A DNA stretch of 52,743 nucleotides from a virus (IMGVR_UViG_3300043773_000950:1-52743), one strand, 5' to 3'; positions 1,332 through 52,612 are shown, counted from the first letter of the stretch. The notes: generated by a model not told the origin, from the sequence alone. A program made the numbers and translations.

Positions 1332-1442
1332 ATTATCGATATCGATAAAAAGGAAGCACGGGGCAAAGAGAGTCCTCTATCGGGTATAAAGACCAACAAA
1401 ACAGGAGAGAATAGACCAGATAGGGTATAGAGAACCACAACA

Positions 1443-1625
1443 ATGAAAACCGAAACCGCATACCAAAAAATTGATAACCTAGAAAAGCTGGGAAGAATGC
1501 TGGCGGGCAAAGAAGCCGCGCCAACCATACATGTAGACGAAGACGGATTCTACTACATAGGAGAAAGAATGTTCACTGACTTCAGGGCAGCCAAGATCGC
1601 CATAGCAAAAGACACTTGGAGGTGA
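1443..1625 (+). CDS. Hypothetical protein
   Basis: 60-aa ORF with an A-rich leader; last gene before a long non-coding stretch. Confidence 0.55.
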   Translation: MKTETAYQKIDNLEKLGRMLAGKEAAPTIHVDEDGFYYIGERMFTDFRAAKIAIAKDTWR

Positions 1626-1740
1626 TAGGGAGGTTTTTTCTCGCTGGCTAAGGGACTTTCTCTACGCTGGGCCAATCCGCCACATGGTCGCCGGGGGAGG
1701 GTGGTGCCACGGGTCGCCCTCTGTGAGAAAAGAGATTCCT

Positions 1741-1804
1741 TTGTAGCTTGTGCTACACTCTGTAGGGGAGGGGCTTTCGTTGTAGTGATGGCTACACTCT
1801 GTAG
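1741..1804. repeat. Direct repeat TTGTAG-N5-GCTACACTCTGTAG, 2 copies 39 bp apart
   Basis: Copies at 1741-1765 and 1780-1804 in a non-coding region. Confidence 0.75.
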
Positions 1805-1869
1805 TGTGTGAGAGTATCGTTGAACGATACGGGGGGCTTTTTTTCTCTCACTTATTTTCTCACAAACTA

Positions 1870-1898
1870 TTGACAAGCGGGGGGGTTGCTGGTAGTCT
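1870..1898 (+). promoter_or_regulatory. Sigma70-type promoter
   Basis: TTGACA (1870-1875), 17-bp spacer, TAGTCT (1893-1898) preceded by TGn (extended -10). Confidence 0.7.
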
Positions 1899-2076
1899 TA
1901 TGCATGAAGGTTGGAATGGATTTCCTCCCATCAATTGTTCTCTGAAAGTCTAATCGTTCACTTCATTTCCTGAACTCCGTTCCTTCGCTTGCGATCATGC
2001 AGCGGAAACAAAAACACGAATCCGTTTATCGTTACGATATTCGTTTCGGTAGTGTGAGGGTGCGGAAACGCAGGAA

Positions 2077-2790
2077 ATGAAAACGAAAACAAAAAACGCA
2101 AAACTTGAGATCGTTCGTGATGCCGCATCAATTGATGCACTGCTTACTCGGAATGATCGTGGGTATTTGAACGCAAACGCAAAGCTTGCTGATGTTCCAA
2201 CCGCCGACCTTGTGACATATGCTGTCACGAAGTTGGAAGCGGGACAGAGCGCCTTGCGCGATGCGGTCTTATTCGCTGGTGCTGTCTTTAAGACATGCAC
2301 GGAAGAAAAAGCAAAACTGTTTGCTGATGGCCTCACTGTCACTTTTGGCGGAATGTCTAAGGACATTCTCTCAATAGGACGGGCCTTGCCACAGTTTGAG
2401 GCGCGCGGCCTTTCCCTCTCAAATGTTCGCGACCTTTACGGGTTGCGTGACATTAGGAAGCTCGCCCTCGGTGAAGACAAAGCGGTTGCCGACAAAGCAA
2501 TCGCGCTTCTTAATGCTGGCAAGCCCGCACGGGTTGCGCGAAAAGAAATAATTGACGCGCAATCGCCCGCCGTTGCAATAATCGGCGCAGAAAGCAAAGC
2601 AAAGCAGGAAGCGGCGCCGCAACCAGAGCCTGCCAATCCAGAGGAGAAAGCGGAGGTGATCCGCCGCCTCTTTACTGGTTACGCGGAAAAGGTTCAAGAG
2701 TTGTTTGATCATGATGAACGCGTAAAAATCGCGCAGCAGGCCGTGGCGAAATTGAAGCTCGCGGGGTGGAGCCTGCAGAAAGTGAAGTGA
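2077..2790 (+). CDS. Hypothetical protein, monocistronic early gene
   Basis: 237-aa Ala/Lys-rich ORF between the 1870 promoter and a strong terminator. Confidence 0.8.
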   Translation: MKTKTKNAKLEIVRDAASIDALLTRNDRGYLNANAKLADVPTADLVTYAVTKLEAGQSALRDAVLFAGAVFKTCTEEKAKLFADGLTVTFGGMSKDILSIGRALPQFEARGLSLSNVRDLYGLRDIRKLALGEDKAVADKAIALLNAGKPARVARKEIIDAQSPAVAIIGAESKAKQEAAPQPEPANPEEKAEVIRRLFTGYAEKVQELFDHDERVKIAQQAVAKLKLAGWSLQKVK

Positions 2791-2793
2791 ACG

Positions 2794-2832
2794 AAAAAAT
2801 GGGGAGTGACCTTCGGGTTGCTCCCCTTTTTT
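2794..2832. terminator. Intrinsic terminator, probably bidirectional
   Basis: A-run, GGGGAGTGACC-TTCG-GGTTGCTCCCC hairpin, T-run; lies between convergent genes. Confidence 0.85.
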
Positions 2833-2859
2833 GTGCCCAGATTTTTCGGGCGTTTTGCT

Positions 2860-3462
2860 CTATGCCGTGAGTGCGGTTTGCTCTTCCTCTTCCCGGCTTT
2901 GGCTATCGGTAACGATAGCATCTTGGGGGGCGCTTTTCTCTTCCACGACTTCGATGATATGTTTTCCATTAACATATCCCATCTCATCCTTTGCTGGCGG
3001 CGTGACATGGAGCGAGATCATGGCATTCACGCTCATTGCCTTCTGATTCTGAACCTCTTGCTGATCCAATCCCAGCGTCCTCCTCGCCGTCTTGTCGAGT
3101 TCTGTGAGCAGTTCCAACCTTTCCTTTTGTTCCTTCGTTCCTGTGAGTTTCCTTCTGCCCTCAATCACCTTTCTCTCTTCCTCGATCTGTTTCAGCATAA
3201 ACCACAGATGGGCTTCACTTTCCTCTCCCATCCGGTGAATCAGCTTTTTTTCTATCTTCGCGGCGGCTTGCGTTCTGATGAGGTCGCGCTGCTTCGCCCA
3301 TCTTTCCTTAACCATCACATTCCTAAAGTAAAACGGAGACAGACCCTTGTATTGTGGGAGTTTTGTTATGTCTGCAACATCCATCCCCGCCATGTAGTGC
3401 GCCTTTATCTCTTCCCAGTTCCACTTCTTCGGCCTTCCGATGTTTTCTGGATTCCTGTCCAT
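2860..3462 (-). CDS. Putative terminase small subunit / HTH DNA-binding protein
   Basis: N-terminal GRPKK-WNWEEIKAHYMAG HTH-like pattern followed by helical/coiled-coil segments, as in many TerS proteins. Start placed at ATG 3462. Confidence 0.5.
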   Translation of the reverse strand: MDRNPENIGRPKKWNWEEIKAHYMAGMDVADITKLPQYKGLSPFYFRNVMVKERWAKQRDLIRTQAAAKIEKKLIHRMGEESEAHLWFMLKQIEEERKVIEGRRKLTGTKEQKERLELLTELDKTARRTLGLDQQEVQNQKAMSVNAMISLHVTPPAKDEMGYVNGKHIIEVVEEKSAPQDAIVTDSQSREEEEQTALTA

Positions 3463-3528
3463 GTCCGGCAAGCTACCTCGTCCACATTTTCTTGTCAACT
3501 TCCATCGCCCTCGTTCAACACAAAAGTA

Positions 3529-3557
3529 TTGACAAAAATAGTTCTTTGTGGTAGTAT
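3529..3557 (+). promoter_or_regulatory. Sigma70-type early promoter
   Basis: TTGACA (3529-3534), 17-bp spacer, TAGTAT (3552-3557) preceded by TGn; points into the early gene array. Confidence 0.75.
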
Positions 3558-4498: not shown

Positions 4499-4576
4499 TT
4501 AGCCACTCTGCTCTGTTATCGTTACGATAGCAGGGCAGCAGGCTGGTTACAACCAACCAGCGAAAACACGAAACAA

Positions 4577-5176
4577 ATGAAAGATACATTACATACAGAA
4601 TCCTACAGAGGATATACAATCAATATCGTTCGCGATATCGATCCAGAAAACCCGCGTGAGTGGGACAACATTGGAACGATTGTGTGCTGGCATCGCAGAT
4701 ATAGGCTCGGTGACCCGCACAAGTTCTCAAATCCAGATGAGTTCAACGAATGGATTAGGGAGCAAGGTCAGATGATCGTCCTTCCCGTGTTTCTCTATGA
4801 TCACAGTGGGTTGGCTATTCAATGTGAGCCGTTCTCTTGTCCTTGGGACTCTGGTCAAGTCGGATACATCTATTGCTCAATTAAGCAAGCAAAGAAAGAA
4901 TTCGGCGGGACAAGTGAAGAGTTGATAGTCAAGGCAGAGTCATGGCTTCGCTCAGAAGTGGAGATATACAACAACTTCCTTCAAGGCAATGTTGTTGTAT
5001 GGACTGCGGTGAACGCCAATGGAGTAGAGTGGGATTCGTGCGGGGGATATTACCCAGACTGCGGCACGAATGGCACTCGCCAGTGGGATCAGCCCATCGA
5101 AGACGCCAAGTTGATTATTGATTCCACCATCGAGGCCGATGAGAGAAACGCCATCGATGCGTGCCTCAATATATAG
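4577..5176 (+). CDS. Conserved hypothetical phage protein
   Basis: ENPREWDN, LYDHSG and WDSGQVG motifs, which I recognise from phage/mobile-element proteins of unknown function. Confidence 0.8.
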   Translation: MKDTLHTESYRGYTINIVRDIDPENPREWDNIGTIVCWHRRYRLGDPHKFSNPDEFNEWIREQGQMIVLPVFLYDHSGLAIQCEPFSCPWDSGQVGYIYCSIKQAKKEFGGTSEELIVKAESWLRSEVEIYNNFLQGNVVVWTAVNANGVEWDSCGGYYPDCGTNGTRQWDQPIEDAKLIIDSTIEADERNAIDACLNI

Positions 5177-5256
5177 TTAGACACACCGCTTCTCGTTAAC
5201 GATAACGGGGAGCGGTAGTCTGACATACAACCATGTCGGAAACACACGAAACAAAT

Positions 5257-5934
5257 ATGTATATCATACATGAAACCAATGATTTGGTAGCCATTGCCAC
5301 GCGCAATTCTACCAATAGAAAAACAGGCAAATCAGTTCAGATATGGATTCTCGATGCACAGATGCATCCAGTAGAATCCAGAAGGTCTGGGCGTGACGCG
5401 GAGAATCAATGCAACGGATGCCCGTTCGCAAGCAACAATGGTTGCTATGTGAATGCCAATCCCATCGCATCGATCTGGCGGGCGTATCAGCGCGGCTCAT
5501 ATGAATACCTTCAGATGGGCACACGCGAGTGGTATGACTTCTTCTCCGTCCCGTTTGTGCGCTTCGGTGCTTATGGCAATCCATCCCATCTCCCACTTGA
5601 GATGGTGTATGACATTTCCAGACTCGCCACGCGTATCACGGGATATTTCCACGACTGGAACTCCATGCCAGCCGGACTCGCCAAGTCATACGGCAAGTTC
5701 TTCATGGCATCCTGTGAGCCAGAGAATGTCGAGTATGCCCGCAATCTTGGGCTTCGCACATTCACCATATCCAACGAGCGTATCGGTAACGATATCGAAT
5801 GCCTCGCGGATTCCAAGGGGCTTACTTGCGCGGAGTGTGGGCTGTGTGACGGCAACCGCCGCCGCAATAGCCTCCCATCCGTGTGGATCAATCCTCATGG
5901 TTACCAGAAGAAGAAAGCGGAGGCCGCACTATGA
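5257..5934 (+). CDS. Cys-rich protein, possibly metal/Fe-S binding (gp88-like or degenerate radical-SAM-like)
   Basis: CNGCP...CYV, VRFGAYGNP, TGYFHDW, FMASC, TCAECGLC. Start at ATG 5257 after the conserved leader. Family assignment is from memory only. Confidence 0.6.
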   Translation: MYIIHETNDLVAIATRNSTNRKTGKSVQIWILDAQMHPVESRRSGRDAENQCNGCPFASNNGCYVNANPIASIWRAYQRGSYEYLQMGTREWYDFFSVPFVRFGAYGNPSHLPLEMVYDISRLATRITGYFHDWNSMPAGLAKSYGKFFMASCEPENVEYARNLGLRTFTISNERIGNDIECLADSKGLTCAECGLCDGNRRRNSLPSVWINPHGYQKKKAEAAL

Positions 5935-6107: not shown

Positions 6108-6189
6108 CAGACACTCTGGTGTTATCGGTAAACGATAACGCCAGCAGTCTGCTTGCATGGTGCAAGTAGATAACCAAAACACGAAACAT

Positions 6190-6564: not shown

Positions 6565-6645
6565 TCAGACACTCCGCTCATTATCGTTTAACGATAGTGG
6601 GCGGCAGTCTGCTTACATGGTGTATGCAGAAAACACGAAACACAA

Positions 6646-7110
6646 ATGACAAGAGAACAATACGCTGAAGGCAAGATATACGAGGAGTTTACTCCTATTG
6701 ATACATGGGAAGCAACCATCGAACATCTGAATGATGATTACTCATTCAGTTGTGTCGGCGGCCCATTTGTTGAACTGTCACCCGGTGATATGCTGTCGAA
6801 ATACGACTACGATGGATTCCAAGATTATCGTAGACGATATGTCGAGCGCATGATCCTTGAGAAGAAGTGGGCCTATGTCGGTGGAGATGTTTATGACATC
6901 GAAGCCAAGTGGTCTTACGATGGTATCCTCAACCAAGTCAAGGATTGCGATCCATACCATATCAGCGGGACAGATTCAGAAGATGGCTGGTATTACTACG
7001 ATGACAAGGCATTCTGCTGCGGGCCATTCGGCACTGAGGCGGATGCTTATGACAACGCAGTCCAACAGTATTGGAACAACCTAATGGAGGTATCATGCTG
7101 CGAAAACTAA
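6646..7110 (+). CDS. Hypothetical acidic protein
   Basis: 154-aa D/E/Y-rich ORF after a repeat unit; GWYY...GPF motif. Confidence 0.75.
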   Translation: MTREQYAEGKIYEEFTPIDTWEATIEHLNDDYSFSCVGGPFVELSPGDMLSKYDYDGFQDYRRRYVERMILEKKWAYVGGDVYDIEAKWSYDGILNQVKDCDPYHISGTDSEDGWYYYDDKAFCCGPFGTEADAYDNAVQQYWNNLMEVSCCEN

Positions 7111-7364: not shown

Positions 7365-7446
7365 CCAGACACTCCGTCCGTTATCGTCAACGATAGCGGG
7401 CGGAAGTCTGGTAGCATGGTGCTACTGGTAAACAACAAACACGAAA

Positions 7447-8090: not shown

Positions 8091-9703
8091 CACTCGACAA
8101 ATTGCTTGAAACTCTGGACTTCTGCCAGCCCATCAGAAAAGAAACCAAGGTCGGGACGCGTCTTCTTCGGAAGGCGCAACCTACCAAGGAATTCTGGGAC
8201 ACCTACAAGATCGACAAGCAGTCCTATTCCAAAGAACTCAAGAAGATTGGAATGTCAATCAATGAGTTCCGTGGTAATTGGGAAGTTGCTTGGTGGTCGA
8301 GGCCGGATTTGACATTCGCGCCCATCCCCAACTTCAAGCTGGAGATGCCGGAAGATATCGTTACCGATATTTCTTCTCTGCCTGCACTCAAGTTTCCTGA
8401 CAAATTGTTTCAATATCAGATAACTTCTGTGCAGTTGGGTGTCCGTTCGCTGGAGAAATACAACCGCGCTCTTCTTGGTCACGGCACTGGCATGGGCAAG
8501 ACGGCAATCGCCTTGGCTATCGCCCGTGAATTCGGCAAGAGGGTCGCAGTCATCTGTCCCAAGCCAATCGTCACAGACTGGCATAGGATGGCGAAATACC
8601 TCGGCGTAGAGACATACGATGTCTGTGGCTGGGAGTGGGTCAAGACGGGCAAATCCAAGATGGGTGGTTGGGTTTCCAAGGAGAAGAAGAACTTCAAATG
8701 GGAAATACCAAAAGATACTATTTTAGTATTTGATGAAGTCCATCGCGGCAAAGCATACAAGACCCAGAATGCCATCATCATCGCAGATGCGGTGCATCAA
8801 AACATCTCATCTCTCGCATTATCGGCAACGATAGCGGATGACCCAACCAAGATGTGGGCTATTGGTCAGTTCCTCGGTCTACACAAGGGGCAGGATTACT
8901 TTCCTTTCCTCTTGCGGAATGACTGCGTGAAGACTCAATGGGGCATGAAGTTCGATGGTGGACTCCATGTCTTGAGCAGGATTCACAAGCAGATATTCCC
9001 AGATCGCGGGAATAGGCTCAAGCCATCCGATGTTGGTGATGAGTTCCCAGAGACACTCATCCATGCCCGTGCATTCGACATGGATAGTGCCAAGGATATC
9101 GCGGCTGAATATGACAAGCTGCTTGTGCGTATCGAAGAGCTACGCATGCAGGAGAACTTCGCCGCTAATGTATTGGCAGAGCAGACAAGAGCAAGGCAGG
9201 CCGTCGAGCTACTCAAAGCTCCAGCGGTTTGCTCTCTCGCTCAAGACCTCATCGAAGAAGGCAATTCCGTCTTCATCGCGGTCAATTATGTCGAGACGCT
9301 CAAGTTCATGCAGAATGAACTCAAGACCAAATGCACAATCCAAGGCGGGCAGAACGAACTCCTGCGGCGAGGGAACATCGATTCCTTCCAGAACGACAAG
9401 TCGAGAGTCATCATCGGCATCACACAAGCATGCCGTGAAGGTCTTAACTTGCACGATATCAATGGAAGGTATCCACGCATCGCCTTGATCATGCCGACCT
9501 ATTCTGTCTTCGATCTCAAGCAAGTCTTGGGTCGTGTCCACAGGGCGGGCGGCAAGTCAAAGTCGATCCAATACCTCGTCTATGCTGCTGGAGTCGGCAT
9601 CGAGGAGGACATCTGCGAATCGTTAGACATGAAACTGAAAAGGATGGATCAGCTTATGGATGGCGAAATAGACGCATCCATCAGCTTGACTACATCAAAA
9701 TGA
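8087..9703 (+). CDS. SF2 (SNF2-like) helicase/ATPase
   Basis: GTGMGKT (motif I), DEVH (II), SAT (III), EGLNL (V), QVLGRVHR (VI). Confidence 0.92.
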   Translation: MTLDKLLETLDFCQPIRKETKVGTRLLRKAQPTKEFWDTYKIDKQSYSKELKKIGMSINEFRGNWEVAWWSRPDLTFAPIPNFKLEMPEDIVTDISSLPALKFPDKLFQYQITSVQLGVRSLEKYNRALLGHGTGMGKTAIALAIAREFGKRVAVICPKPIVTDWHRMAKYLGVETYDVCGWEWVKTGKSKMGGWVSKEKKNFKWEIPKDTILVFDEVHRGKAYKTQNAIIIADAVHQNISSLALSATIADDPTKMWAIGQFLGLHKGQDYFPFLLRNDCVKTQWGMKFDGGLHVLSRIHKQIFPDRGNRLKPSDVGDEFPETLIHARAFDMDSAKDIAAEYDKLLVRIEELRMQENFAANVLAEQTRARQAVELLKAPAVCSLAQDLIEEGNSVFIAVNYVETLKFMQNELKTKCTIQGGQNELLRRGNIDSFQNDKSRVIIGITQACREGLNLHDINGRYPRIALIMPTYSVFDLKQVLGRVHRAGGKSKSIQYLVYAAGVGIEEDICESLDMKLKRMDQLMDGEIDASISLTTSK

Positions 9704-9754
9704 AAAAGGGGCAGACTGTCGGTTCAACACCTTCAGTTCTGCCCCTCTTTTTTT
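9703..9754. terminator. Bidirectional intrinsic terminator
   Basis: AAAAAGGGGCAGA...TCTGCCCCTCTTTTTTT between convergent operons; a palindrome copy follows at 9754-9767. Confidence 0.75.
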
Positions 9755-9768
9755 ATCGTTGACGATAG

Positions 9769-13041: not shown

Positions 13042-13171
13042 CACTTTTGTCTATTATCGTTAACGATAGTGGGGAGGCCATTTTACCGACCTCCCCACTC
13101 AACACATATGAACAAATACAACGAAACAAAGAAACGCTCTTTGCTGCGGAAACTCTACCACTCTTTGATTG

Positions 13172-24832: not shown

Positions 24833-24847
24833 TATCGTTACCGATAA

Positions 24848-29772: not shown

Positions 29773-29816
29773 GGGATTATCGTTAACGATATTCTGTTGG
29801 ATTCTAAATGCAAGTG

Positions 29817-34121: not shown

Positions 34122-34235
34122 TCATGTGATCGACTGCGGTTGTGGTTTATCGTTACCGATAATTATAGTGATGTTCAGATACCGCTCGTAGTTCAGAGCG
34201 TCCCAGTTCTTATCTGATGTGCAGGCGAGGCTCAT
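34122..34235 (-). CDS. Possible 37-aa ORF or gene remnant
   Basis: MSLACTSDKNWDALNYERY...; ATGA overlap with the upstream stop; weakly resembles the N-terminus of 36685-36960. Confidence 0.35.
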   Translation of the reverse strand: MSLACTSDKNWDALNYERYLNITIIIGNDKPQPQSIT

Positions 34236-36623: not shown

Positions 36624-36684
36624 AATTTTAGATTATGTGTGCGGTGGAGGATCGAACTCCCTCGCGGTTTATCGTTACCGATAA

Positions 36685-40022: not shown

Positions 40023-40025
40023 AAA

Positions 40026-42808: not shown

Positions 42809-42841
42809 AATTCGTTAATTATCGTTGACGATAATCATTTT

Positions 42842-43250: not shown

Positions 43251-45098
43251 GTGTCAAGAGATTTTGTTGGTCAAAATGGTATCAGGCAATACGGGATGCT
43301 TTTTCCCGAAAACATGAATCAGCTTGAAATAGAGCTATATTGCTATGCGATTACTCGCGGGCAGTATGGCAAAACCTATTGTGTGAAAAAGGGATTGGAC
43401 TTATCGGAGTTCAAGCTACTCAGTCCATTTGAACACTTCATCAAGGCCGTTCAGTATATGTGGCCCACTGATGTGGTCATTAAAAATAGGGGCTATACGA
43501 ATACCCAACTTTTGAGGACATTGGAAGAACTCTGCAACAATGACGATGTAGTTCTCGCGGGCGCGGCATCGATGGGAAAGAGCTTCCCTGTTGCATTGTG
43601 GGTTTACTTGGATTGGTGTGCCGCACCGCACTGCACATCTGCTTGGGTGGCTACGACTACTCTTGGTGCTTCGGAAGACCGTATTTGGGGTATCATCTCA
43701 AAGCTGTGGAAGTGTGCTTCAAACCAGATCGGAAACCTTGTAGATTACAGGCACATGATTGTGTGGGGCGGGGCTACGGGCGATGATGATAAGGACTACC
43801 GCAATGCGATTAAGGCTCTGGCATTCCCACAAGGTAACGAGGGCAAGAAAGCAGTCGACACTACCCGTGGTAGGAAAAATGACAGAGTGCGCCTAGCCCT
43901 TGATGAGTTGCCTGAAATGGAAATGGGTGCGCTGACTGCGAAAGTGAACCTGACCTCCAACGATGACAAGGTGTTTATCGGTATCGGCAACCCTTCTGTA
44001 GGTGACAATCCTCACACTCGGTGGTGTATGCCAAAAGGCGCTACGAATTTTGATGGTGTGGATATGGGGATGGATAAGTGGGAGACGGAGACTGGCATCT
44101 GTTTGTTCTACAACGGCATGAAGTCCCCGAACTTCCAAGCCCCGGCTGGAGAGCCGTCTCCTTTCCCATTCCTCATGGACAGGACGAAGCAGGCGCAGAT
44201 GCTTAAGCAGTGCTATGGGGACGAGAATGCTGTGGACTATGTTCGCAATGCCATCGGATGGTGGCCCAAGTCCGGCTTTGCCCAGACGATCCTGACCGCA
44301 GATGTGATCCGTAATGCCAATACCAATGAAGAGCCACTATGGGACTCTGAAGGGTTGGTCAAGGTCGCGGGATTCGATACCGCCTTCACCGCTGGTGGGG
44401 ACAGGTGTGTGCTGACTATCGGGAAACTTGGCTATGTGCGCGGAACTAGGAATCGTGTCCTCTATCTGGAAAAGCAGCATGTCATTCAAATATCTGCTAC
44501 TGCCAGCGCCGAGTTTGAAGTCCAGCTTGCCATAGAGACAATTCGCCTGTGCCGCGAGGCGGGAGTAGAACCAAAACGATTCGGTATGGATGTCTCTGGA
44601 GATGGCGGGCGGGTGGCTCAAGCTATCATCCGCGAGTGGCTCAAGTATGAATCCAGCGGGCATAGCATCGTGCTGATTAGCTCAATGGGTAAACCAACCG
44701 ACCGAATCGCCGCCGATGTCGATAAGCGTCCATGTAATGAAGTCTATGACAGACTGGTATCTGAATACCATTATAGCATATTTCACGGGTTCAAAAGTCG
44801 TGTGCTATTTGGAGTGGATTACGCTACAGAACTAGGTCGGGAACTCTGCCTGCGGAGATACTTCATAAAGAATAAGAAGATCAGTATCGAAACTAAGAAT
44901 GATTACAAAGCGCGGATTGGTTCATCGCCTGACCTTGCGGATAGTTTCAGCTATGCCGTAGAGATGGCCCGCCGATACGGACTCGTTTTTATCGGTAACG
45001 ATAAACCTGTTCCGACTAATCGATTCTGGGCGCGGGACGAGAAGAAGGTCGATATGCCCGACGAAGAGTATGCCTCGCAAGATTGGGGCGAGGATTAA
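43251..45098 (+). CDS. terL: Terminase large subunit
   Basis: Walker A GAASMGKS, Walker B LALDE, coupling motif GIGNP, nuclease GFDTA...GGD and SPDLADS. Confidence 0.88.
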   Translation: MSRDFVGQNGIRQYGMLFPENMNQLEIELYCYAITRGQYGKTYCVKKGLDLSEFKLLSPFEHFIKAVQYMWPTDVVIKNRGYTNTQLLRTLEELCNNDDVVLAGAASMGKSFPVALWVYLDWCAAPHCTSAWVATTTLGASEDRIWGIISKLWKCASNQIGNLVDYRHMIVWGGATGDDDKDYRNAIKALAFPQGNEGKKAVDTTRGRKNDRVRLALDELPEMEMGALTAKVNLTSNDDKVFIGIGNPSVGDNPHTRWCMPKGATNFDGVDMGMDKWETETGICLFYNGMKSPNFQAPAGEPSPFPFLMDRTKQAQMLKQCYGDENAVDYVRNAIGWWPKSGFAQTILTADVIRNANTNEEPLWDSEGLVKVAGFDTAFTAGGDRCVLTIGKLGYVRGTRNRVLYLEKQHVIQISATASAEFEVQLAIETIRLCREAGVEPKRFGMDVSGDGGRVAQAIIREWLKYESSGHSIVLISSMGKPTDRIAADVDKRPCNEVYDRLVSEYHYSIFHGFKSRVLFGVDYATELGRELCLRRYFIKNKKISIETKNDYKARIGSSPDLADSFSYAVEMARRYGLVFIGNDKPVPTNRFWARDEKKVDMPDEEYASQDWGED

Positions 45099-45689: not shown

Positions 45690-45914
45690 CTATTCTAGGA
45701 CACCTTCTAGTTCAAGCGCATTCGCTAGTTCCTCTTGCACCGTGATGAGTGCGTAGGTGTAGCCCTCGCTCGTCTTCTCGATAGGCTCGATTTTGCGAAT
45801 GTTCTCTTTCTGTATCCAGCAGTCGTTGTAGTCCTGCATGAAGCGCAGTTTGTTTGGTTTATCGTCAACGATAAATCCTCTGCATGTGACTAAGCTCTCA
45901 AACTTTGTATTCAT
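45690..45914 (-). CDS. Hypothetical protein
   Basis: 74-aa ORF overlapping the HNH gene. Confidence 0.65.
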   Translation of the reverse strand: MNTKFESLVTCRGFIVDDKPNKLRFMQDYNDCWIQKENIRKIEPIEKTSEGYTYALITVQEELANALELEGVLE

Positions 45915-46218
45915 AAATTAGGTATCCTTTTTCCCTCGCCCACGCGGGATTTGCGTGGATTCTGTCGTGACAGGATCGGCAGCAAGCCATGAAAGTATGC
46001 TTCGCGAGGAGGTTCTTTCCTCTCCCGCTTTTGTGGTGGATGTCTGTTGCTTGCCCGCCGCAGGCTTCACATGTGAAGTTTTTGTCCCAGAGGAATTGCT
46101 TTCTGATTTCAGAATACGCTTTACTTTTTTCTCTGCCTTTTTTCGATACTGCATTCAGCCTACCTCCGCGCTTTTTGAATCCTGTTTTTGCCCGCAACGG
46201 GGTTTTTCTTCGTAGCAT
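45898..46218 (-). CDS. HNH endonuclease
   Basis: CEACG..ATDIHH...CCRSCHDRIH. Confidence 0.85.
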   Translation of the reverse strand: MLRRKTPLRAKTGFKKRGGRLNAVSKKGREKSKAYSEIRKQFLWDKNFTCEACGGQATDIHHKSGRGKNLLAKHTFMACCRSCHDRIHANPAWAREKGYLIYEYKV

Positions 46219-46466
46219 AGTGATACAATCTTGTCTATGTGTTCCGGCTTCAAGATGCTTTTGCAGACTGTTTCCACTTGGTTGATCAGGCTCCCCGTCA
46301 CTCCGATCCGCGCGCCAAGTTCGCGAACTGTCATGCCAAGATGCTTTCTTGTCTGCTTTAGTGATGTGCCAAACAACATTCTCGCAGAATGCCTGATCTC
46401 CTTGCTCTTCTCGATAGAGGCAAGGTAGTTCTCGTAGGCTACTTTGAGATCGTGGCTTTGATTCAT
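46155..46466 (-). CDS. XRE-family HTH regulator
   Basis: LKQTRKHLGMTVRELGARIGVTGSLINQVE. Confidence 0.8.
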   Translation of the reverse strand: MNQSHDLKVAYENYLASIEKSKEIRHSARMLFGTSLKQTRKHLGMTVRELGARIGVTGSLINQVETVCKSILKPEHIDKIVSLCYEEKPRCGQKQDSKSAEVG

Positions 46467-47943: not shown

Positions 47944-49176
47944 ATGAAAAAAGTCCCAATACGCCAAAAAGTGGAAGCTGCCGCACTCAGCCTCCTCGTC
48001 CAAGATCAAACCATCCTTGCCCAACAGAAGTGGGATGCCTCGCTTTTCGCGCTAAAGCCCCATAGAATCGTTTTCGAGGCAATCGAGGGGTTCCATAGCC
48101 GAACGGGTGCCTGCGAACCTTTTAACGCCATTGCCCAACTTGAGGCGGATGGGAAGCTGGAAGCAGCGGGTGGAGAGGAGCAAGTGGTCGAGATTCTCAA
48201 GACCAACCTCATGCCATCCGGTAAGGTTTGTTTCGATACGGCAAACGAATATCGCGTCCAGTTAAGGGAGGCGAAGGCATACCGCGACTTCATAGCCACC
48301 TACGAGGAGATGGAAGGCGAGATCAGGAACGGAAAGGCCGACCTCGCCAAATTATCGTTAACGATAACGACTGCTTTGGAGCCGGACATTAAGCCCCGCC
48401 GCGCCAAGAGGGATATCCTATCCGACATCATCGATGAAATGGAGGGCAAGAAGGATGAGAAGGTATTCCCAGCAGGCGTCTTCATGTTGGACAAGAACCT
48501 CAAGGGTGGCCTCCATGCGGGCGAGATGATGACAGTCGCCGCTGAAACCGGAGGAGGCAAATCGATCCTCCTCGTCCAAGCCGCCATAGCGAACCTACAC
48601 TTGGGAAGGAAGGTATTGTTCCTATCTCTCGAAATGTCGGCTGATGATATCTATCGTAGGATGGCATCGCAGATCGCTGGAGTCCCAATCCGTGACGCGG
48701 AGGAGTATCGCGAGAAGCATGCTTGGGAACTACCAAAACTTGGCGAGGTATTCGCTCAACTACAGAAGATGCCCATAGAGGTGATCGACGGGATATCGGA
48801 TATAGATGACATAGAAGCTACGATAAACATGTATGCGGGGAACGGATCGGCGGAAGTAGTCTGCTGCGACTACATCCAGATCATCTCATCCAAGGAGAAC
48901 GAAAACAGGGAGAATGCGATCTCGGAGGTAGCCAGAAGGCTAAAGACCGCAGCGATGCGGCATAAGATTGCCATGTTCACCGCTAGCCAGCTTAACGACG
49001 AAGGGAAACTCCGTGAGTCAAGGGCTATCGGCATGCACTCGGATCAAGTAGTTTCGATTGAACACAAGGCCGACAGCAGTAAGATTGTTGTCAGAAAGAA
49101 CCGCCGTGGGCCAAGGAACACAGCCATCAAGGTGAAAATGAACGGAGAACTCTCCAAGTTTGAGAATGAATTCTAA
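47944..49176 (+). CDS. dnaB: DnaB-like replicative helicase
   Basis: AAETGGGKS, LSLEM, DYIQ, ASQLN, RESRAI and KNRRG motifs. Confidence 0.92.
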   Translation: MKKVPIRQKVEAAALSLLVQDQTILAQQKWDASLFALKPHRIVFEAIEGFHSRTGACEPFNAIAQLEADGKLEAAGGEEQVVEILKTNLMPSGKVCFDTANEYRVQLREAKAYRDFIATYEEMEGEIRNGKADLAKLSLTITTALEPDIKPRRAKRDILSDIIDEMEGKKDEKVFPAGVFMLDKNLKGGLHAGEMMTVAAETGGGKSILLVQAAIANLHLGRKVLFLSLEMSADDIYRRMASQIAGVPIRDAEEYREKHAWELPKLGEVFAQLQKMPIEVIDGISDIDDIEATINMYAGNGSAEVVCCDYIQIISSKENENRENAISEVARRLKTAAMRHKIAMFTASQLNDEGKLRESRAIGMHSDQVVSIEHKADSSKIVVRKNRRGPRNTAIKVKMNGELSKFENEF

Positions 49177-50320: not shown

Positions 50321-50463
50321 AAAAAGGACTCTACTATAATGTAAACGCTAAACGCAAGCGCATTGAGGCTGGCAGCGGTGAGAAGATGCGCAAGGTCGGA
50401 AGCAAGGGTGCCCCTACTGCGAAAGCGTGGCGGGACTCCAAGAAGACTGCAAAGAAGAAATAA
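50317..50463 (+). CDS. Small basic protein (48 aa, not in the ORF track)
   Basis: MKKGLYYNVNAKRKRIEAGSGEKMRKVGSKGAPTAKAWRDSKKTAKKK*; ATGA overlap. Confidence 0.7.
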   Translation: MKKGLYYNVNAKRKRIEAGSGEKMRKVGSKGAPTAKAWRDSKKTAKKK

Positions 50464-50465
50464 CC

Positions 50466-50708
50466 ATGGAAAAGCGTTTCAAGAAAATAGTCACAAACCC
50501 CAAGACTGGGCGCAAGAAGACCGTGCGCTATGGTCAGGCTGGTAAGGCCAAAGACGGCGGTGATCGCATTAGGCCGGGCACCAAGAAGGGTGATGCTTAC
50601 TGCGCTCGTTCTGCTAAAATCAAGGGAGATTGGAAGTCTGACCCCAATAGCCCGAACAGCCTGTCCCGCAAGAAGTGGAAGTGTCGCGGGTCAAAATCAA
50701 TGAAGTAA
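50466..50708 (+). CDS. Small basic protein
   Basis: YCARS...DPNSPN.LSRKKWKC. Confidence 0.75.
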   Translation: MEKRFKKIVTNPKTGRKKTVRYGQAGKAKDGGDRIRPGTKKGDAYCARSAKIKGDWKSDPNSPNSLSRKKWKCRGSKSMK

Positions 50709-51260
50709 ATGCTCTACACAAAGATAGGGCAGATACCAACGCACAAATACATCTGGGTTGACTCACGCTTTACTCACAAGACACCATGTGGGCTTGTCGA
50801 GGCAGAGTGGGTCGGCCTAACATCAATACCGAACCGCGTATGGGGAATCAATGTCGTTCTCAGGAACGGCGGGGCACTCTACAGGAATGTCCCACCCCAT
50901 GCGATCAGGTTCAAAAACAAACAAATCAACTGGAATATTAAAGATGCACAACTTTGGGATTGTTATTCGTATCAGTTTACTGTTCTTCATAATGAACATT
51001 TGTCAGGCGGCTTGGTCGCAAAATGTGGTTCAACCTTGTTTCATGGAAAATATCTATTCTCCGCTACCTTCTTGGGAGACGGATACTCAGATAGTCCAGA
51101 TCAGGACAAGGAGTTCATCTTTTGTGAACTATCCAATGGCTGTCTATCCATACAGCCCACAAACCGTGTGGTATTCAGGGACATATCCTATATCATACCC
51201 GCCGATCCTATTCCCGCGCTTAGACTAACCGAGGAGATATATAGCTGTGAAATGCCCTGA
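50709..51260 (+). CDS. Hypothetical protein
   Basis: 183 aa; GALYRNVP...QLWDC...QPTNR. Confidence 0.75.
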   Translation: MLYTKIGQIPTHKYIWVDSRFTHKTPCGLVEAEWVGLTSIPNRVWGINVVLRNGGALYRNVPPHAIRFKNKQINWNIKDAQLWDCYSYQFTVLHNEHLSGGLVAKCGSTLFHGKYLFSATFLGDGYSDSPDQDKEFIFCELSNGCLSIQPTNRVVFRDISYIIPADPIPALRLTEEIYSCEMP

Positions 51261-51516
51261 ATGCGGGTCGTATATGTCTATCGTTACCGATAGTCGCGAC
51301 ATCTACAAGTTCAATGGTGCCAAGCGCCGCCGCCGGAAGTGCGAGAAAGGCCATGCTTGGACAACCTACGAGATAACCAAGGAACACTTGGCCCAGAGCC
51401 TTGAGTTCAATCAGAGGGATGCAGAAAATATAAAGTCTGCCATGTCTATATTTAATAGGATGGCTAAAAAACTTAACAAGCTCTCTCGCTTTTTCGAGGG
51501 CGACGAAGACAAGTGA
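51247..51516 (+). CDS. NrdR-like zinc-ribbon protein
   Basis: CPECG...DSR...RRRRKC...H.WTTYE matches the NrdR N-terminal pattern; no ATP cone. Confidence 0.7.
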   Translation: MKCPECGSYMSIVTDSRDIYKFNGAKRRRRKCEKGHAWTTYEITKEHLAQSLEFNQRDAENIKSAMSIFNRMAKKLNKLSRFFEGDEDK

Positions 51517-51907
51517 AACAACATATAGGCGTCATAGGAATCTTGCTACTAGGATTCATTTTGGCTGTCGCTTTGCACTGGAAAGAACTATACTATCCAT
51601 CCCCGGATTTCACTCGATGTCCGCTGTGCAACACTCAACAAAAATAGATATGGAAGCTCTTCAACAGGAAATCAAGACACTATACAAAAGGATTGACAAT
51701 CTGATCAGCCAACGGGATAGTTGGGCACTCAAATACGCGAGGCTCAAGGAGAAATATGACGCGGGCGGAAGCACAGACAAAAGCCAACAATGACTTCGCC
51801 TTCGGGCGGGTAACATTGGAGGAGTGGAGGAAGATAACCGATGAGTTGTCCAACCCACATAAATGGTTAGCTGGCGGCAGGCTCCGAGAGACTCCAAAGG
51901 AGGAAAG

Positions 51908-52087
51908 ATGAGCCTAAAGAACGAACAATACTGGGCACTGAAGAAGGCCCGCGATTTCCTGCGCGATCTGATGGATTCCAAGAAGCGCCCCAAGACCGTG
52001 AAGGAAATGAAGGAGCGTGCATACTCCTGCCTGCGCCACTACCCATTTCTCAAGGAAGACGGAGAGCCGATGTTCTCCAAACACTAG
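51908..52087 (+). CDS. Hypothetical protein
   Basis: GGAGG upstream; FLRDL...P...A..CLRHYP. Confidence 0.65.
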   Translation: MSLKNEQYWALKKARDFLRDLMDSKKRPKTVKEMKERAYSCLRHYPFLKEDGEPMFSKH

Positions 52088-52091
52088 TGGT

Positions 52092-52340
52092 ATGAGGAAG
52101 CCTCCCAAGAAGCCACCCGAAGACCGGAACGCGATCTTTGAGAAAGTTCGCCAGCTTCTTACAGAGCAGTATGATTGTGGTCTGGTAGTCTGTAGCTGGG
52201 AAGAGGGAGGAGAAACATTCCACATGTTCCAAAAGTTCGGGAATGAATATGCGGTAGAGAAGCTATCCGAGAAGACCCACGAACTCCTGTTCCCTTTCGA
52301 GGAGGGTGAGGAGGAGGAAGAAGAGGACGAAGAGGCATGA
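52092..52340 (+). CDS. Hypothetical protein with acidic tail
   Basis: MRKPPKKP...GNEYA...EEEEEEDEEA. Confidence 0.6.
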   Translation: MRKPPKKPPEDRNAIFEKVRQLLTEQYDCGLVVCSWEEGGETFHMFQKFGNEYAVEKLSEKTHELLFPFEEGEEEEEEDEEA

Positions 52341-52429
52341 TGGAGGACATCTACAAATTGATCTTCTTTTTCGCACTTTTTGCTGGACTCCTACTAAATC
52401 TTGCGTTTCTAATAAAGCTCACACACTAG

Positions 52430-52612
52430 ATGATCTCGCAAATCACCAAAGCAGCTACAGAGCTAATGTCGCTAGTCCACATGGACAATGAACTCCACAG
52501 GGAACATACAATCAGCCGCGTAGCCAAGAAGGCCGGAACCATTATGATTGATGGAAAGAAGTATCTGGTCGAGGTGGTGCTGACCGAGATTATCGTTAAC
52601 GATAATGAATAA
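52430..52612 (+). CDS. Hypothetical protein
   Basis: 60 aa; its C-terminus IIVNDNE is encoded by a palindrome copy. Confidence 0.5.
   Translation: MISQITKAATELMSLVHMDNELHREHTISRVAKKAGTIMIDGKKYLVEVVLTEIIVNDNE

What the first reader, a model, noticed from the sequence alone, without database searches (positions are those of the whole stretch)
1334..52604. A 14-bp palindrome (TATCGTTAACGATA) recurs every ~1-4 kb across the whole genome, including inside essential genes
Seen: at least 25 exact TATCG-N4-CGATA copies by manual count (N4 nearly always TTAA, TTAC/GTAA or TTGA/TCAA) plus 7 near variants. Ten fixed bases predict about 0.05 copies in 52.7 kb at equal base frequencies. The largest gap I found is 4.4 kb (20461-24833). 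More than half of the copies are inside CDSs (TerL, DnaB, SF2 helicase, scaffold, amidase, tail nozzle, three in the giant protein). They are read in different frames (IVND/IGND/IVTD/IVDD versus LSLTI/VSSTI), so selection acts on the DNA rather than the peptide. Others sit at gene starts, a terminator or a promoter (9754, 13055, 24833, 29778, 36670, 42820). Established: it does not match parS (TGTTTCACGTGAAACA), matS (GTGACRNYGTCAC), E. coli Chi or HIP1. Inference: a dimeric protein binds periodically along the genome. It could organise or shield the DNA, mark it as self against host defence, assist packaging/ejection, or define programmed nicks. A simple operator would not need evenly spaced intragenic sites. 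This is my best candidate for an undescribed system.
Basis: partly seen in the sequence, partly recalled or inferred. Interest (0 to 1): 0.93.

Follow-up and report, generated by a model that had tools for sequence, protein, structure and literature searches.

The report
Evenly spaced palindrome in lake phages
An uncultured freshwater phage and hundreds of its relatives keep an exact 14-base palindrome every 2-3 kb along their genomes, even inside genes, most likely as docking sites for a phage DNA-binding protein whose job is still unknown.

Summary
The window, a whole 52.7-kb phage record, holds 27 exact TATCG-N4-CGATA sites against 0.02 expected. Seventeen lie in genes against 0.73 after codon-preserving shuffles. 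Spacing is more even than random in 7 of 7 complete genomes. Sites are nearly all-or-none: 144 exact, 30 one-mismatch, no paired compensating changes. Some occupy the same position in relatives while flanks diverge. The motif marks a large group of lake phages. A sister clade that shares only the structural genes lacks it.

Best reading (0.5): binding sites of a phage-encoded symmetric dimer acting genome-wide. My favoured candidate is the 316-aa protein at 10062-11012. It has a weak ParB/Noc-like fold match, a distant LmbU-family match and a predicted homodimer, and it co-occurs with the motif. It lacks the ParB CTP motif. The only Pfam-recognised XRE-type HTH protein found (46155-46466) is absent from deep motif-bearing clades. 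What the sites do is inferred, not shown.

The closest published analogue is the unexplained 17-bp palindrome of Cluster O mycobacteriophages (PMC4351075). I rate this a new variant of a known kind.

The parts
1334..1347 (.). site, N4 ATAT, between ORFs
2904..2917 (.). site, inside 2860-3498(-)
4624..4637 (.). site, N4 TTCG, inside 4577-5176(+)
5781..5794 (.). site, inside 5233-5934(+)
6826..6839 (.). site, N4 TAGA, inside 6646-7110(+)
7382..7395 (.). site at the apex of an early intergenic hairpin unit
8356..8369 (.). site in the SF2 helicase gene
8820..8833 (.). site in the SF2 helicase gene; same position in G001 and G006
9754..9767 (.). site beside the convergent terminator-like hairpin between the two strand blocks
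10727..10740 (.). site inside the candidate binder gene
13055..13068 (.). site 14 bp upstream of the -35 box of the sigma70-like promoter of the recombination/binder operon; a site upstream of this operon recurs in relatives
16042..16055 (.). site in the giant 2644-aa gene
18011..18024 (.). site in the giant gene
20461..20474 (.). site in the giant gene
24833..24846 (.). site abutting the start codon of 23870-24832(-); within 6 bp of the same place in 6 of 6 relatives
27161..27174 (.). site in the 614-aa structural gene; identical position in 6 of 6 relatives
29778..29791 (.). site 5 nt upstream of the start of 28468-29772(-)
30800..30813 (.). site in the amidase gene
34148..34161 (.). site 46 nt upstream of 33820-34101(-)
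36670..36683 (.). site 46 nt upstream of 35937-36623(-)
39833..39846 (.). site in 38745-40022(-)
42820..42833 (.). site 11 nt upstream of the 848-aa (portal-sized) gene; conserved in 4 of 6 relatives
44990..45003 (.). site at the 3' end of TerL; exact position kept in 4 of 6 relatives and in the deep clades G012 and G013, absent from motif-less G014
45860..45873 (.). site in 45690-45914(-)
48353..48366 (.). site in the DnaB linker; identical position in 6 of 6 relatives with N4 varying
51279..51292 (.). site in 51247-51516(+)
52591..52604 (.). site near the record end
1815..1829 (.). N5-spacer variant, early region
2027..2039 (.). N3-spacer variant
4517..4529 (.). N3-spacer variant at a hairpin apex
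6123..6137 (.). N5-spacer variant at a hairpin apex
6582..6596 (.). N5-spacer variant at a hairpin apex
10062..11012 (-). favoured candidate binder: 316-aa protein with a ParB/Noc/LmbU-like HTH region and a predicted symmetric homodimer
2860..3462 (-). second candidate: HTH plus long coiled-coil protein (terminase-small-subunit-like lead), co-occurs with the motif
46155..46466 (-). XRE-type HTH protein, conserved within the close family only
45898..46218 (-). small HNH endonuclease, co-occurs with the motif in deep clades

Best explanation
The motif is a/t-TATCG-K-W-A-M-CGATA-a/t, a 14-bp core inside a palindrome of up to 18 bp. I read it as a set of high-affinity DNA binding sites for a phage-encoded, symmetric dimeric helix-turn-helix protein. 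Each half of the dimer would read one TATCG(K) arm, and the A/T-rich centre would be largely uncontacted.

Sites are kept at roughly one per 2-3 kb, and one per kb in the early region. They sit in intergenic DNA where that exists and inside genes where it does not. As a result, every stretch of the genome lies within a few kb of a bound dimer.

The most likely binder is the 316-aa protein at 10062-11012 (minus strand). Its operon is itself preceded by a site.

What the bound array does is inferred only. I think a genome-wide architectural or long-range regulatory role is most likely, in the manner of KorB operators on plasmid RK2 or Noc sites on the Bacillus chromosome, rather than ordinary promoter-by-promoter repression.

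Status of each step:
- Shown: reality of the motif, DNA-level selection, even spacing, deep conservation, and co-occurrence with a gene module.
- Inferred: protein binding, the identity of the binder, and the function.
For: (1) Enrichment and DNA-level selection.
- 27 sites against 0.02 expected.
- 17 in-CDS sites against a mean of 0.73 in 1000 codon-preserving shuffles, none of which reached 17.
- At the orthologous sites in the 614-aa gene, DnaB and TerL, the arms are invariant while flanking codons and residues diverge and N4 changes.

(2) Geometry fits a dimer on duplex DNA.
- The spacer is N4 in 144 of 152 arm pairs with spacers of N3-N5 in 7 genomes (2 are N3, 6 are N5).
- Each arm independently ends in T or G.
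- The centre is TA, AA or TT and never AT in 144 of 144 sites.

(3) No pairing covariation.
- There are 144 exact sites, 30 one-mismatch sites (about 12 expected) and 127 two-mismatch sites (about 161 expected).
- Only 4 of the 17 mirrored double changes restore a Watson-Crick pair.

(4) Even spacing.
- The coefficient of variation of the gaps is 0.44-0.64 in 7 of 7 genomes, with P between <5e-5 and 0.04.

(5) Spread.
- 80 of 80 TerL-relative loci carry the motif (318 sites in 771 kb, control pattern 1).
- The deep clades G012 and G013 carry 26 and 29 sites at 42-48% TerL identity.
- All 20 sites of an 800-kb MAG lie on its phage contig.

(6) Absence in a sister clade.
- G014 (complete) has 1 site, and G015-G018 have 0-1.
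- That clade shares the structural genes but lacks homologues of 10062-11012, 2860-3498, 11240-12055, the HNH gene, DnaB and the giant protein.

(7) Candidate 10062-11012.
- Foldseek rows 1-10 are all ParB/Noc. This includes the Noc DNA-binding domain bound to its palindrome (6y93_B: TM 0.69, rmsd 3.8 A, 116 columns).
- NCBIfam LmbU-family regulator match at E = 1.7e-8 over residues 138-267. LmbU binds a palindrome and forms a homodimer (PMC6510168 passages).
- Homodimer model: score 0.71, best of 3 controls 0.00. That mark was reached by 20 of 30 proteins solved as pairs of one chain and by 1 of 23 solved as single chains. The runs agree in at least 52% of contacts, and partner pLDDT is at least 72. 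The interface runs through the invariant residues 143-168.
- 52 of 52 loci that encode a homologue carry the motif (417 sites in 935 kb, control pattern 1).
- A site lies upstream of its operon in G000 and 5 of 6 relatives (within 73 bp of the projected place). In G012 a site follows the giant gene in the same synteny.
Against: - No binding was tested.
- All Foldseek E-values are weak (0.05-1.1, none at or below 0.001). The VIA-align libraries were not available.
- The LmbU score of 34.6 bits is far below the curated cut-off of 125. Pfam and PHROGs find nothing.
- The putative recognition helix of the G012 homologue is much diverged although the arms are identical.
- Co-occurrence is phylogenetically confounded. 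Only one independent motif-less lineage was available, and six genes co-occur with the motif.
- N3 and N5 variants persist at hairpin apices in the early region. A rigid dimer should not bind these.
- On the sense strand the centre reads AA 42 times and TT 6 times, against a background AA:TT ratio of about 1.6, among the 127 sites with an assignable strand. The 17 sites I dropped as ambiguous read AA 2 and TT 6. A purely symmetric function does not predict this polarity.
- Only 1 of 27 sites is within 100 bp of any of the 7 credible sigma70-like promoters, so ordinary operator control is not the function.
- The near all-or-none sharpness is as typical of enzyme recognition sites as of operators.
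Confidence: 0.5

Rival explanations
1. The sites are recognition sequences of a sequence-specific enzyme rather than of a passive binder. One example would be programmed nicks made by the small HNH endonuclease, alone or guided by an HTH partner, as in T5-type nicked genomes. Another would be site-specific base modification.
For: Recognition is nearly all-or-none: 144 exact sites against 30 one-mismatch sites, with a strict N4 spacer. The HNH gene 45898-46218 is conserved in 6 of 6 relatives. It is present in G012 and G013 and absent from the motif-less clade. The weak strand polarity of the centre could direct a one-strand nick.
Against: Cutting a palindrome on both strands would fragment the genome. 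No methyltransferase or other modification enzyme was found among the ORFs scanned. The ORFs were scanned in parts across Pfam, PHROGs and NCBIfam, and not every ORF went through every library. Small HNH proteins next to terminase genes usually serve packaging (recalled). Contig data cannot show nicks.
Confidence: 0.12
2. The element works as a single-stranded hairpin (5-7 bp stem plus tetraloop) in mRNA or in the lagging-strand template. It might serve, for example, as a processing, stability, translation or priming signal.
For: In the early region the motif forms the apex of long intergenic hairpins, and N3-N5 loops are tolerated there. Several late-gene sites abut or overlap the start codon region. 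The loop shows sense-strand polarity: A at the third loop position in 93% of 127 oriented sites.
Against: There is no compensatory change anywhere in the arms. Two-mismatch sites are at or below background, and no G-U-type substitutions are enriched. The arms are sequence-invariant over 42% TerL identity. Most sites have no further pairing in their flanks. Seventeen sites inside CDSs, at varied distances from starts, are hard to explain by translation control. The N3/N5 copies can be read as decayed sites that survive only because the surrounding RNA hairpin needs a paired apex.
Confidence: 0.1
3. The sites are read by a host factor, such as a host nucleoid protein or regulator, or they are a host uptake-type signal. 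Under this reading their presence reflects the host, not a phage-encoded system.
For: Even spacing of exact, genome-specific words is what uptake sequences and Chi/KOPS-type signals show in bacterial chromosomes (recalled, not from a call). The host is unknown, so its motif density could not be examined.
Against: Motif-bearing phages span 42-55% G+C, which argues against one host genus. Presence or absence tracks a phage gene module. The about 750 kb of non-phage contigs of the only MAG that holds such a phage have 0 sites, but that bin is probably not the host. Known uptake, Chi and KOPS words are asymmetric (recalled).
Confidence: 0.08
4. The sites are recognition sites of the packaging machinery. 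Under this reading 2860-3462 is the small terminase subunit and the palindromes are multiple pac-like entry points.
For: The 2860-3462 protein has an N-terminal HTH followed by 49- and 22-residue helices. Its nearest named Atlas clusters are Terminase_5 / small terminase, with scores of 0.94 (a lead only). It co-occurs with the motif. The most deeply conserved site sits in the TerL 3' end.
Against: The fold search found nothing. Pfam, PHROGs and NCBIfam are blank. Known small terminases bind as rings to arrays of repeats, not to single strict palindromes (recalled). Another small conserved gene (42842-43213) sits in the usual place beside TerL and the portal-sized gene, and it is shared with the motif-less clade. 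Headful or cos packaging needs one site, not 27 evenly spaced ones.
Confidence: 0.08
5. The sites are chiefly recombination linkers. They would be short conserved words at module boundaries that promote exchange of gene cassettes among co-infecting relatives.
For: Ends of BLAST matches between genomes fall within 30 bp of a site 3-4 times more often than random positions do, in 7 of 7 genomes. In two runs, Logan unitigs break and variant paths join at 24831-24862, next to site 24833. Cluster O authors saw insertions and deletions flanked by their repeat (PMC4351075 section 8).
Against: A conserved island in diverged DNA anchors alignment ends by itself, so the enrichment is biased. The one clean deletion variant (34095 to 36618) joins inside the shared coding sequence, not at the motif. 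A word of 14 bp is short for homologous exchange. This reading does not explain the sites kept inside conserved genes.
Confidence: 0.08

Closest known systems
17-bp palindromic repeat of Cluster O mycobacteriophages (TGTTCGG-N3-CCGAACA; Corndog and relatives), PMC4351075 section 8 (read)
   Same: More than 30 copies per roughly 70-kb genome. Arms are invariant with only three one-mismatch copies. The central spacer is A/T-rich. Copies lie in short intergenic regions, near the 5' ends of genes and inside genes. Most are not near promoters. Positions are mostly shared among relatives. The repeat is absent from the host. The authors suggest a dimeric regulator and leave the function open.
   Different: The sequence, arm length and spacer are unrelated, as are the phages (temperate-type actinobacteriophages with prolate heads versus uncultured lake phages). 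Even spacing was not tested there. Here the motif survives divergence down to 42% TerL identity and co-occurs with a defined gene module.
KorB operators (OB) on plasmid RK2 (PMC11790492, abstract and passages). The figure of 12 dispersed OB sites is recalled.
   Same: A short exact palindrome is dispersed over a roughly 50-60 kb mobile genome, at varying distances from promoters. It is bound by a dimer with a ParB-type HTH domain that acts over kb distances.
   Different: KorB is a CTP-dependent sliding clamp with the ParB N-terminal domain. The candidate here has no arginine in its first 190 or so residues, so it lacks that motif. No KorA-like partner and no partition ATPase were found.
Noc and its NBS sites in Bacillus subtilis (PMC8429893 and PMC4331003, abstracts)
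   Same: Palindromic sites of 14-16 bp are scattered round a genome. The best structural match of the candidate binder is the Noc DNA-binding domain on its site.
   Different: Noc is a cellular nucleoid-occlusion factor with a CTP switch and a membrane-binding helix. There is no evidence for either here.
Stoperators of Cluster A mycobacteriophages (PMC9283540, abstract only)
   Same: Tens of repressor sites are distributed across a phage genome, many away from promoters.
   Different: Stoperators are asymmetric. They are read by a monomer and serve prophage silencing. Here the site is symmetric, no integrase was found, and the one genome-collection scan found no prophage copy.
LmbU-family regulators of actinomycetes (PMC6510168, passages)
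   Same: There is distant sequence similarity over the central DNA-binding region. LmbU binds a palindrome and forms a homodimer.
   Different: The score is far below the family cut-off. LmbU controls a few promoters of an antibiotic cluster, not a genome-wide array.

Membership tests
Dispersed invariant palindromic repeat of a phage genome (Cluster O type) | Tens of copies with invariant inverted arms and a variable A/T-rich spacer | tested here: met
   27 copies in the window and 17-29 in nine other complete relatives. Arms are invariant and the centre is K-W-A-M.
Dispersed invariant palindromic repeat of a phage genome (Cluster O type) | Copies both between and inside genes, mostly away from promoters | tested here: met
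   17 of 27 sites are in CDS. One of 27 is near a sigma70-like promoter.
Dispersed invariant palindromic repeat of a phage genome (Cluster O type) | Same sequence or homologous phages | tested here: not met
   The motif is different. The phage collection gave no DNA or protein match.
ParB/KorB/Noc CTP-clamp systems | ParB N-terminal domain with the arginine-rich GxxRxxA CTP-binding box (feature recalled) | tested here: not met
   There is no Pfam ParB-type hit. Residues 1 to about 190 of the window protein contain no arginine (sequence).
ParB/KorB/Noc CTP-clamp systems | ParB-type HTH DNA-binding domain | tested here: inconclusive
   Foldseek rows 1-10 are all ParB/Noc, but E-values are 0.05-1.1. 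The Noc DNA-binding domain gives TM 0.69. The Atlas lead 'ParB HTH' scores 0.91.
ParB/KorB/Noc CTP-clamp systems | Palindromic 13-16 bp sites dispersed on the replicon | tested here: met
ParB/KorB/Noc CTP-clamp systems | Partner ATPase (ParA) or clamp-locking partner | tested here: not met
   No such family appeared among the ORFs scanned.
LmbU family (NF038070) | Score above the curated cut-off | tested here: not met
   34.6 bits against a cut-off of 125; E = 1.7e-8 over residues 138-267.
Stoperators (Cluster A mycobacteriophages) | Asymmetric site oriented with transcription, monomeric repressor, temperate phage | tested here: not met
   The site is a palindrome. No integrase was found. There was no prophage hit.
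Structured hairpin element (RNA or ssDNA) | Pairing kept through compensatory changes | tested here: not met
   Two-mismatch sites number 127 against about 161 expected. Only 4 of 17 mirrored double changes restore a Watson-Crick pair.
Intrinsic terminator | G+C-rich stem followed by a T run | tested here: not met
   The flanks show A, not a T run, after the motif. Only 9754 lies beside a terminator-like hairpin.
Miniature mobile element (REP/MITE type) | Conserved sequence beyond the core, target duplications | tested here: not met
   Information content falls to background beyond positions -2 and +16.
Programmed nick sites (T5 type) | Strand breaks at the sites in virion DNA | not testable with these tools
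   All 24 listed runs are kept as contigs, and there are no raw reads.
Restriction-modification target | Cognate methyltransferase; sites usually avoided, not enriched | tested here: not met
   No methyltransferase was found. The motif is more than 1000-fold enriched.

The most novel reading that the evidence does not exclude
The array is a 'coverage' or self-marking system of a virus. Exact, evenly spaced words would ensure that any few-kb stretch of phage DNA carries a bound phage protein. This is the logic of Chi, uptake sequences or KorB loading sites. Here it would be used by a lytic phage to tell its own DNA from the host's. The purpose could be protection from a processive nuclease of phage or host, or recruitment of every genome segment into a replication or packaging compartment.
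Probability: 0.15. Interest if true: 0.85.

Novelty: new variant of a known kind. Interest (0 to 1): 0.66.

Why it matters
Dispersed, invariant palindromes inside phage genes have been reported once, in Cluster O mycobacteriophages, and were left unexplained. This is a second, independent case with much more comparative power.

- At least 585 IMG/VR stretches encode related terminases.
- Nine further complete genomes carry 17-29 sites each.
- A sister clade without the motif narrows the candidate genes to six, two of which have HTH domains.

Three measured features point to a function that needs whole-genome coverage rather than control of single promoters. These are the even spacing, the all-or-none sharpness and the retention of single sites through 42% terminase identity. 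If the binder and its role are found, this would add a new principle of how a virus organises or marks its chromosome. It would also explain the Cluster O repeat by analogy.

Tried and rejected
Searches for relatives and literature:
- The phage-collection searches found nothing. These were megablast of 25000-45000, tblastn of 25521-27365 and tblastn of 10062-11012.
- A literature search for the exact 14-mer gave 2 papers, both unrelated primer or cloning text (listing only).
- Single-protein scans with the distant terminases P0009 and P0011 gave no useful loci. The alignment A5 then did.

Host:
- The single genome-collection scan gave only one contig. It lies in a MAG labelled Woesearchaeota, and I take it to be a mis-binned phage contig.
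- I could therefore not test motif density in a host.

Expression and DNA ends:
- No RNA holder was listed, and all 24 runs are contigs.
- The laid contigs show no starts or ends.

Hypotheses considered and set aside:
- XRE protein 46155-46466 as the universal binder. Its recognition helix is invariant in 12 of 12 family sequences. However, its profile finds nothing in G012 or G013, and its own promoter region has no site.
- O-like initiator 47126-47938. It was not among the ORFs conserved in at least 4 of 6 relatives.
- NrdR-type zinc-ribbon protein 51247-51516. It has no orthologue in the 6 relatives.
- The motif as a sigma70-type promoter or operator. Seven credible promoter-like sites exist, and only one has a motif nearby.
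- Another palindrome in the motif-less clade. ATTG-N-CAAT occurs 12 times in G014 against 1.3 expected. It is clustered and absent from G015, G016 and G018, so it probably reflects coding repeats.
- Terminal repeats of G012 and G013. They are 123 and 127 bp overlaps typical of circular assembly, and they do not end at sites.

Other blanks:
- The fold search of the 2860-3498 model gave only coiled-coil noise.
- Profile searches of the PDB with A3 and A4 gave nothing meaningful.
- Supplementary files of the papers were not opened.

Full report
What the window is.
The window is a complete IMG/VR virus record of 52,743 bp, with CheckV completeness of 100%. It has no DNA or protein match in the collection of sequenced phages.

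Genes form two blocks.
- The plus-strand block runs from 43251 across the record ends to 9703. It holds a weak TerL match, an O-like initiator, DnaB, a RusA-like resolvase, dCMP deaminase, early cassettes and an SF2 helicase.
- The minus-strand block runs from 43213 to 9769. It holds structural genes, an amidase and a 2644-aa protein. After these comes a separate operon with a PD-(D/E)XK exonuclease and three unknown genes.

I found no DNA polymerase, primase, integrase, methyltransferase or ParA-type ATPase among the ORFs scanned. Shine-Dalgarno-like words precede only 12 of 64 ORFs. Public runs that hold the sequence are lake-water and freshwater metagenomes, all kept as contigs.

The observation.
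The expectation is 0.02, and 0 of 100 dinucleotide shuffles reach 27. The reversed control word occurs 0 times.

- Seventeen sites lie inside CDSs, in three reading frames. Shuffling synonymous codons within each gene gives a mean of 0.73 and a maximum of 4, and 0 of 1000 shuffles reach 17.
- Ten sites lie outside CDSs although only 8.7% of the genome is non-coding (P = 5e-5). Sites therefore prefer intergenic DNA but are placed in genes where no gap is at hand.
- Gaps between sites have a coefficient of variation of 0.50. None of 20,000 random placements was as even.

Anatomy.
I aligned 127 sites from seven complete genomes on the sense strand. The motif reads a-t-TATCG-K-W-A-M-CGATA-a-t. The outer A/T positions are stronger in intergenic copies, where T at -1 is 82% and A at +15 is 96%.

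- The spacer is N4 in 144 arm pairs, N3 in 2 and N5 in 6.
- Recognition is nearly all-or-none. There are 144 exact sites, 30 with one arm mismatch (about 12 expected) and 127 with two (about 161 expected). There is no pattern of compensating changes.
- The centre is TA, AA or TT and never AT. On the sense strand AA outnumbers TT by 42 to 6, against a background AA:TT ratio of about 1.6. The 17 sites of ambiguous strand that I left out read AA 2 and TT 6.
- The N3 and N5 copies, and two of the three TCTCG copies, all sit in the early region. Most are at the apex of long intergenic hairpins.

Conservation.
Of these, 71 of 119 encode relatives of this phage's proteins.

Whole relatives carry 17-24 sites each (G001-G004 and G006-G008), and a 35-kb fragment (G010) carries 22. 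Two unrelated records carry 1 each. All seven complete genomes that I analysed have even spacing, with a coefficient of variation of 0.44-0.64 and P from <5e-5 to 0.04. The 80 best of 244 terminase-relative loci all carry the motif: 318 sites in 771 kb against 1 for the control word.

Positional conservation is partial. Thirteen of the 27 window sites have a site within 7 bp of the projected position in at least one of six relatives, and fourteen do not.
- The sites in the 614-aa gene and in DnaB are kept in 6 of 6 relatives.
- The site abutting the start codon of 23870-24832 is kept, within 6 bp, in 6 of 6.
- The TerL 3' site is kept in 4 of 6.
At these places the flanking codons and even the amino acids diverge, the arms never do, and N4 changes (TTAA, GTAA, GAAA).

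Deep clades and a natural contrast.
A wider terminase profile finds at least 585 IMG/VR stretches. Among loci whose TerL is only 42-48% identical to the window's, some are motif-rich and others have none.
- Motif-bearing complete records: G012 (53.5 kb, 55% G+C) has 26 sites and G013 (50 kb) has 29.
- Motif-less records: G014 (52.8 kb, complete) has 1 site, and the partial records G015-G018 have 0, 0, 1 and 0.

The TerL 3' site is at exactly the same codon position in G012 and G013. The motif-less TerL has unrelated residues there.

The motif-less clade shares the structural genes only. Six window genes have homologues in G012 and G013 but not in G014-G018. They are 2860-3498, 10062-11048, 11240-12055, the giant protein, the HNH endonuclease and DnaB. 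Profile searches confirm this for 2860-3498 and 10062-11048. They find no XRE homologue in G012 or G013. This is one independent contrast, so it narrows the field rather than proving a link.

Candidate binders.
(a) 10062-11012, 316 aa. It is 60-75% identical across the close family and has 679 clusters in the protein collection.
- The AlphaFold model has a mean pLDDT of 78.8.
- The first ten Foldseek rows in the PDB are all ParB or Noc. The Noc DNA-binding domain on its palindromic site aligns over 116 columns (TM 0.69, rmsd 3.8 A). No E-value is better than 0.05.
- In the viral library the top rows are uncharacterised phage proteins, plus two rows named Spo0J/ParB-like.
- NCBIfam gives the LmbU regulator family at E = 1.7e-8 over residues 138-267, far below the curated cut-off. 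LmbU binds a palindrome and dimerises (PMC6510168, passages).
- Two copies are predicted to form a symmetric dimer through the invariant residues 143-168. The score is 0.71 and the best of 3 controls is 0.00. That mark was reached by 20 of 30 proteins solved as pairs of one chain and by 1 of 23 solved as single chains. The runs agree in at least 52% of contacts, and partner pLDDT is at least 72.
- Fifty-two of 52 loci encoding a homologue carry the motif (417 sites in 935 kb, control word 1).
- Its operon has a sigma70-like promoter with a site just upstream (13055). A site upstream of the operon recurs in relatives at varying distance. In G012 it follows the giant gene in the same synteny.
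- Against this candidate: the first 190 or so residues contain no arginine, so the ParB CTP-binding box is absent. The putative recognition helix is much changed in G012.

(b) 2860-3462. It has an HTH followed by long helices. An Atlas lead points to small terminase families. Nothing came from the fold or family searches.

(c) The XRE protein 46155-46466. Its recognition helix is invariant within the family, but it is missing from the deep clades.

How it most likely works.
The strict spacing, the independent half-sites, the A/T centre and the lack of covariation fit a dimer on duplex DNA better than a folded strand. Only 1 of 27 sites is near any of the seven credible sigma70-like promoters (1870+, 3498-, 3529+, 13041-, 46504-, 46939+, 49325+). 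None of these promoters lies in the late block, so this is not a set of ordinary operators.

Even spacing, high sharpness and the filling of gene-dense stretches with intragenic copies argue for a function that needs coverage of the whole chromosome. The nearest mechanistic models are KorB on RK2, which reaches promoters up to 1.5 kb from its sites (PMC11790492, abstract), and Noc sites scattered round the Bacillus chromosome (PMC4331003 and PMC8429893, abstracts). The candidate fails the defining CTP-clamp feature of that family. I therefore say it may work like them but do not file it as a member.

I read the N3 and N5 copies at hairpin apices as decayed sites whose arms survive because the surrounding RNA hairpin needs a paired tip. 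That is inference. The sense-strand polarity of the centre remains unexplained. It may be no more than purine loading of the coding strand.

Rivals.
I hold five rivals at about 0.08-0.12 each:
- enzyme recognition, such as HNH nicking or base modification;
- a single-strand hairpin signal;
- a host-factor or uptake-type word;
- terminase recognition by a 2860-type small subunit;
- recombination linkers.

The linker idea has some support. Ends of inter-genome matches are 3-4 times enriched within 30 bp of sites in 7 of 7 genomes. Unitigs of two runs branch at 24831-24862, beside site 24833. But a conserved island anchors alignment ends by itself. The one clean deletion variant (34095 to 36618, two runs) joins inside the shared coding sequence, not at the motif.

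What is known.
The closest published case is the 17-bp palindrome of Cluster O mycobacteriophages. It has 34 copies in Corndog, invariant arms with three one-mismatch copies, and an A/T-rich spacer. Fourteen copies are intergenic, ten are near 5' ends and ten are elsewhere in genes. Most are away from promoters, and the repeat is absent from the host. The authors suggest a dimeric regulator and call a transcriptional role unlikely (PMC4351075, section 8, read). Stoperators of Cluster A phages differ in being asymmetric, monomer-bound and tied to lysogeny (PMC9283540, abstract).

The phenomenon is therefore not categorically new. New here are the phage group and motif, the demonstrated even spacing, the retention of single intragenic sites through very deep divergence, and a contrast clade that yields named candidate genes. 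The function remains open in both cases.

Verdict.
I rate this a new variant of a known kind, with interest 0.66.

Noticed in passing
window 1870(+), 3498(-), 3529(+), 13041(-), 46504(-), 46939(+), 49325(+): Seven sigma70-like promoters share an A-rich upstream run and the pattern TTGACA-N16-18-TAG(T/C)MT. The pattern scan also hit 32661(+), which lies antisense inside a late gene, so I discount it. No sense-strand match lies in the late block 13.2-43.2 kb, so late genes must be read by some other means.
   Followed up: partly
window, all gene starts: Only 12 of 64 ORFs have a Shine-Dalgarno-like word. Leaders are A-rich and G-poor (for example AAACACGAAA before early genes). This hints at a host that initiates translation without SD pairing, yet the promoters look sigma70-like.
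   Followed up: partly
window 3613-7874: Early genes are separated by hairpin units of roughly 55-150 nt (most about 80 nt; CAGAC...AGTCTG) with the palindrome, or at 7795 another palindrome, at the apex. G-T pairs in the stems suggest an RNA structure.
   Followed up: partly
window 34095-36618: Contigs of two lake runs (X4, X5) skip 2522 bp between the starts of two paralogous capsid-adjacent cassettes, with 11 shared letters at the joint. This is a natural deletion or insertion variant of that cassette.
   Followed up: partly
window 2806-3612: The conserved gene here is the minus-strand ORF 2860-3498 (found in 6 of 6 relatives), not the longer plus-strand ORF 2806-3612. It diverges from the early operon, with back-to-back promoters at 3498 and 3529.
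   Followed up: yes
L221 / G011 contig C3: A 51.8-kb contig of this phage family sits in a MAG labelled Candidatus Woesearchaeota. All 20 motif sites of the 800-kb bin lie on that contig, so it is probably mis-binned phage DNA.
   Followed up: partly
G014 12512-51647 (L290-L292): The motif-less sister clade has 12 copies of ATTG-N-CAAT against 1.3 expected. They are partly clustered every 500 bp or so at 17.5-19.2 kb. They probably reflect repeated coding sequence, and they are not seen in G015, G016 or G018.
   Followed up: partly
window 51247-51516: An 89-aa protein has an NrdR-type zinc ribbon (Pfam E = 5e-10) but no ATP-cone. It has no orthologue in the six relatives.
   Followed up: no
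window 933-1331: A dCMP deaminase is conserved at 69-74% identity in 6 of 6 relatives. No thymidylate-synthase-like partner was seen.
   Followed up: no
G006 37529-38638 (L134): The TerL match in G006 covers only part of the gene in one ORF. The gene may be interrupted there.
   Followed up: no
G013 whole record (L287-L289): In this deep clade the base outside the arms is C/G (CTATCG...CGATAG in 17 of 29 sites) instead of T/A, and centres such as TATC and GAGA occur. The flank and centre preferences differ by clade while the five-base arms do not.
   Followed up: partly
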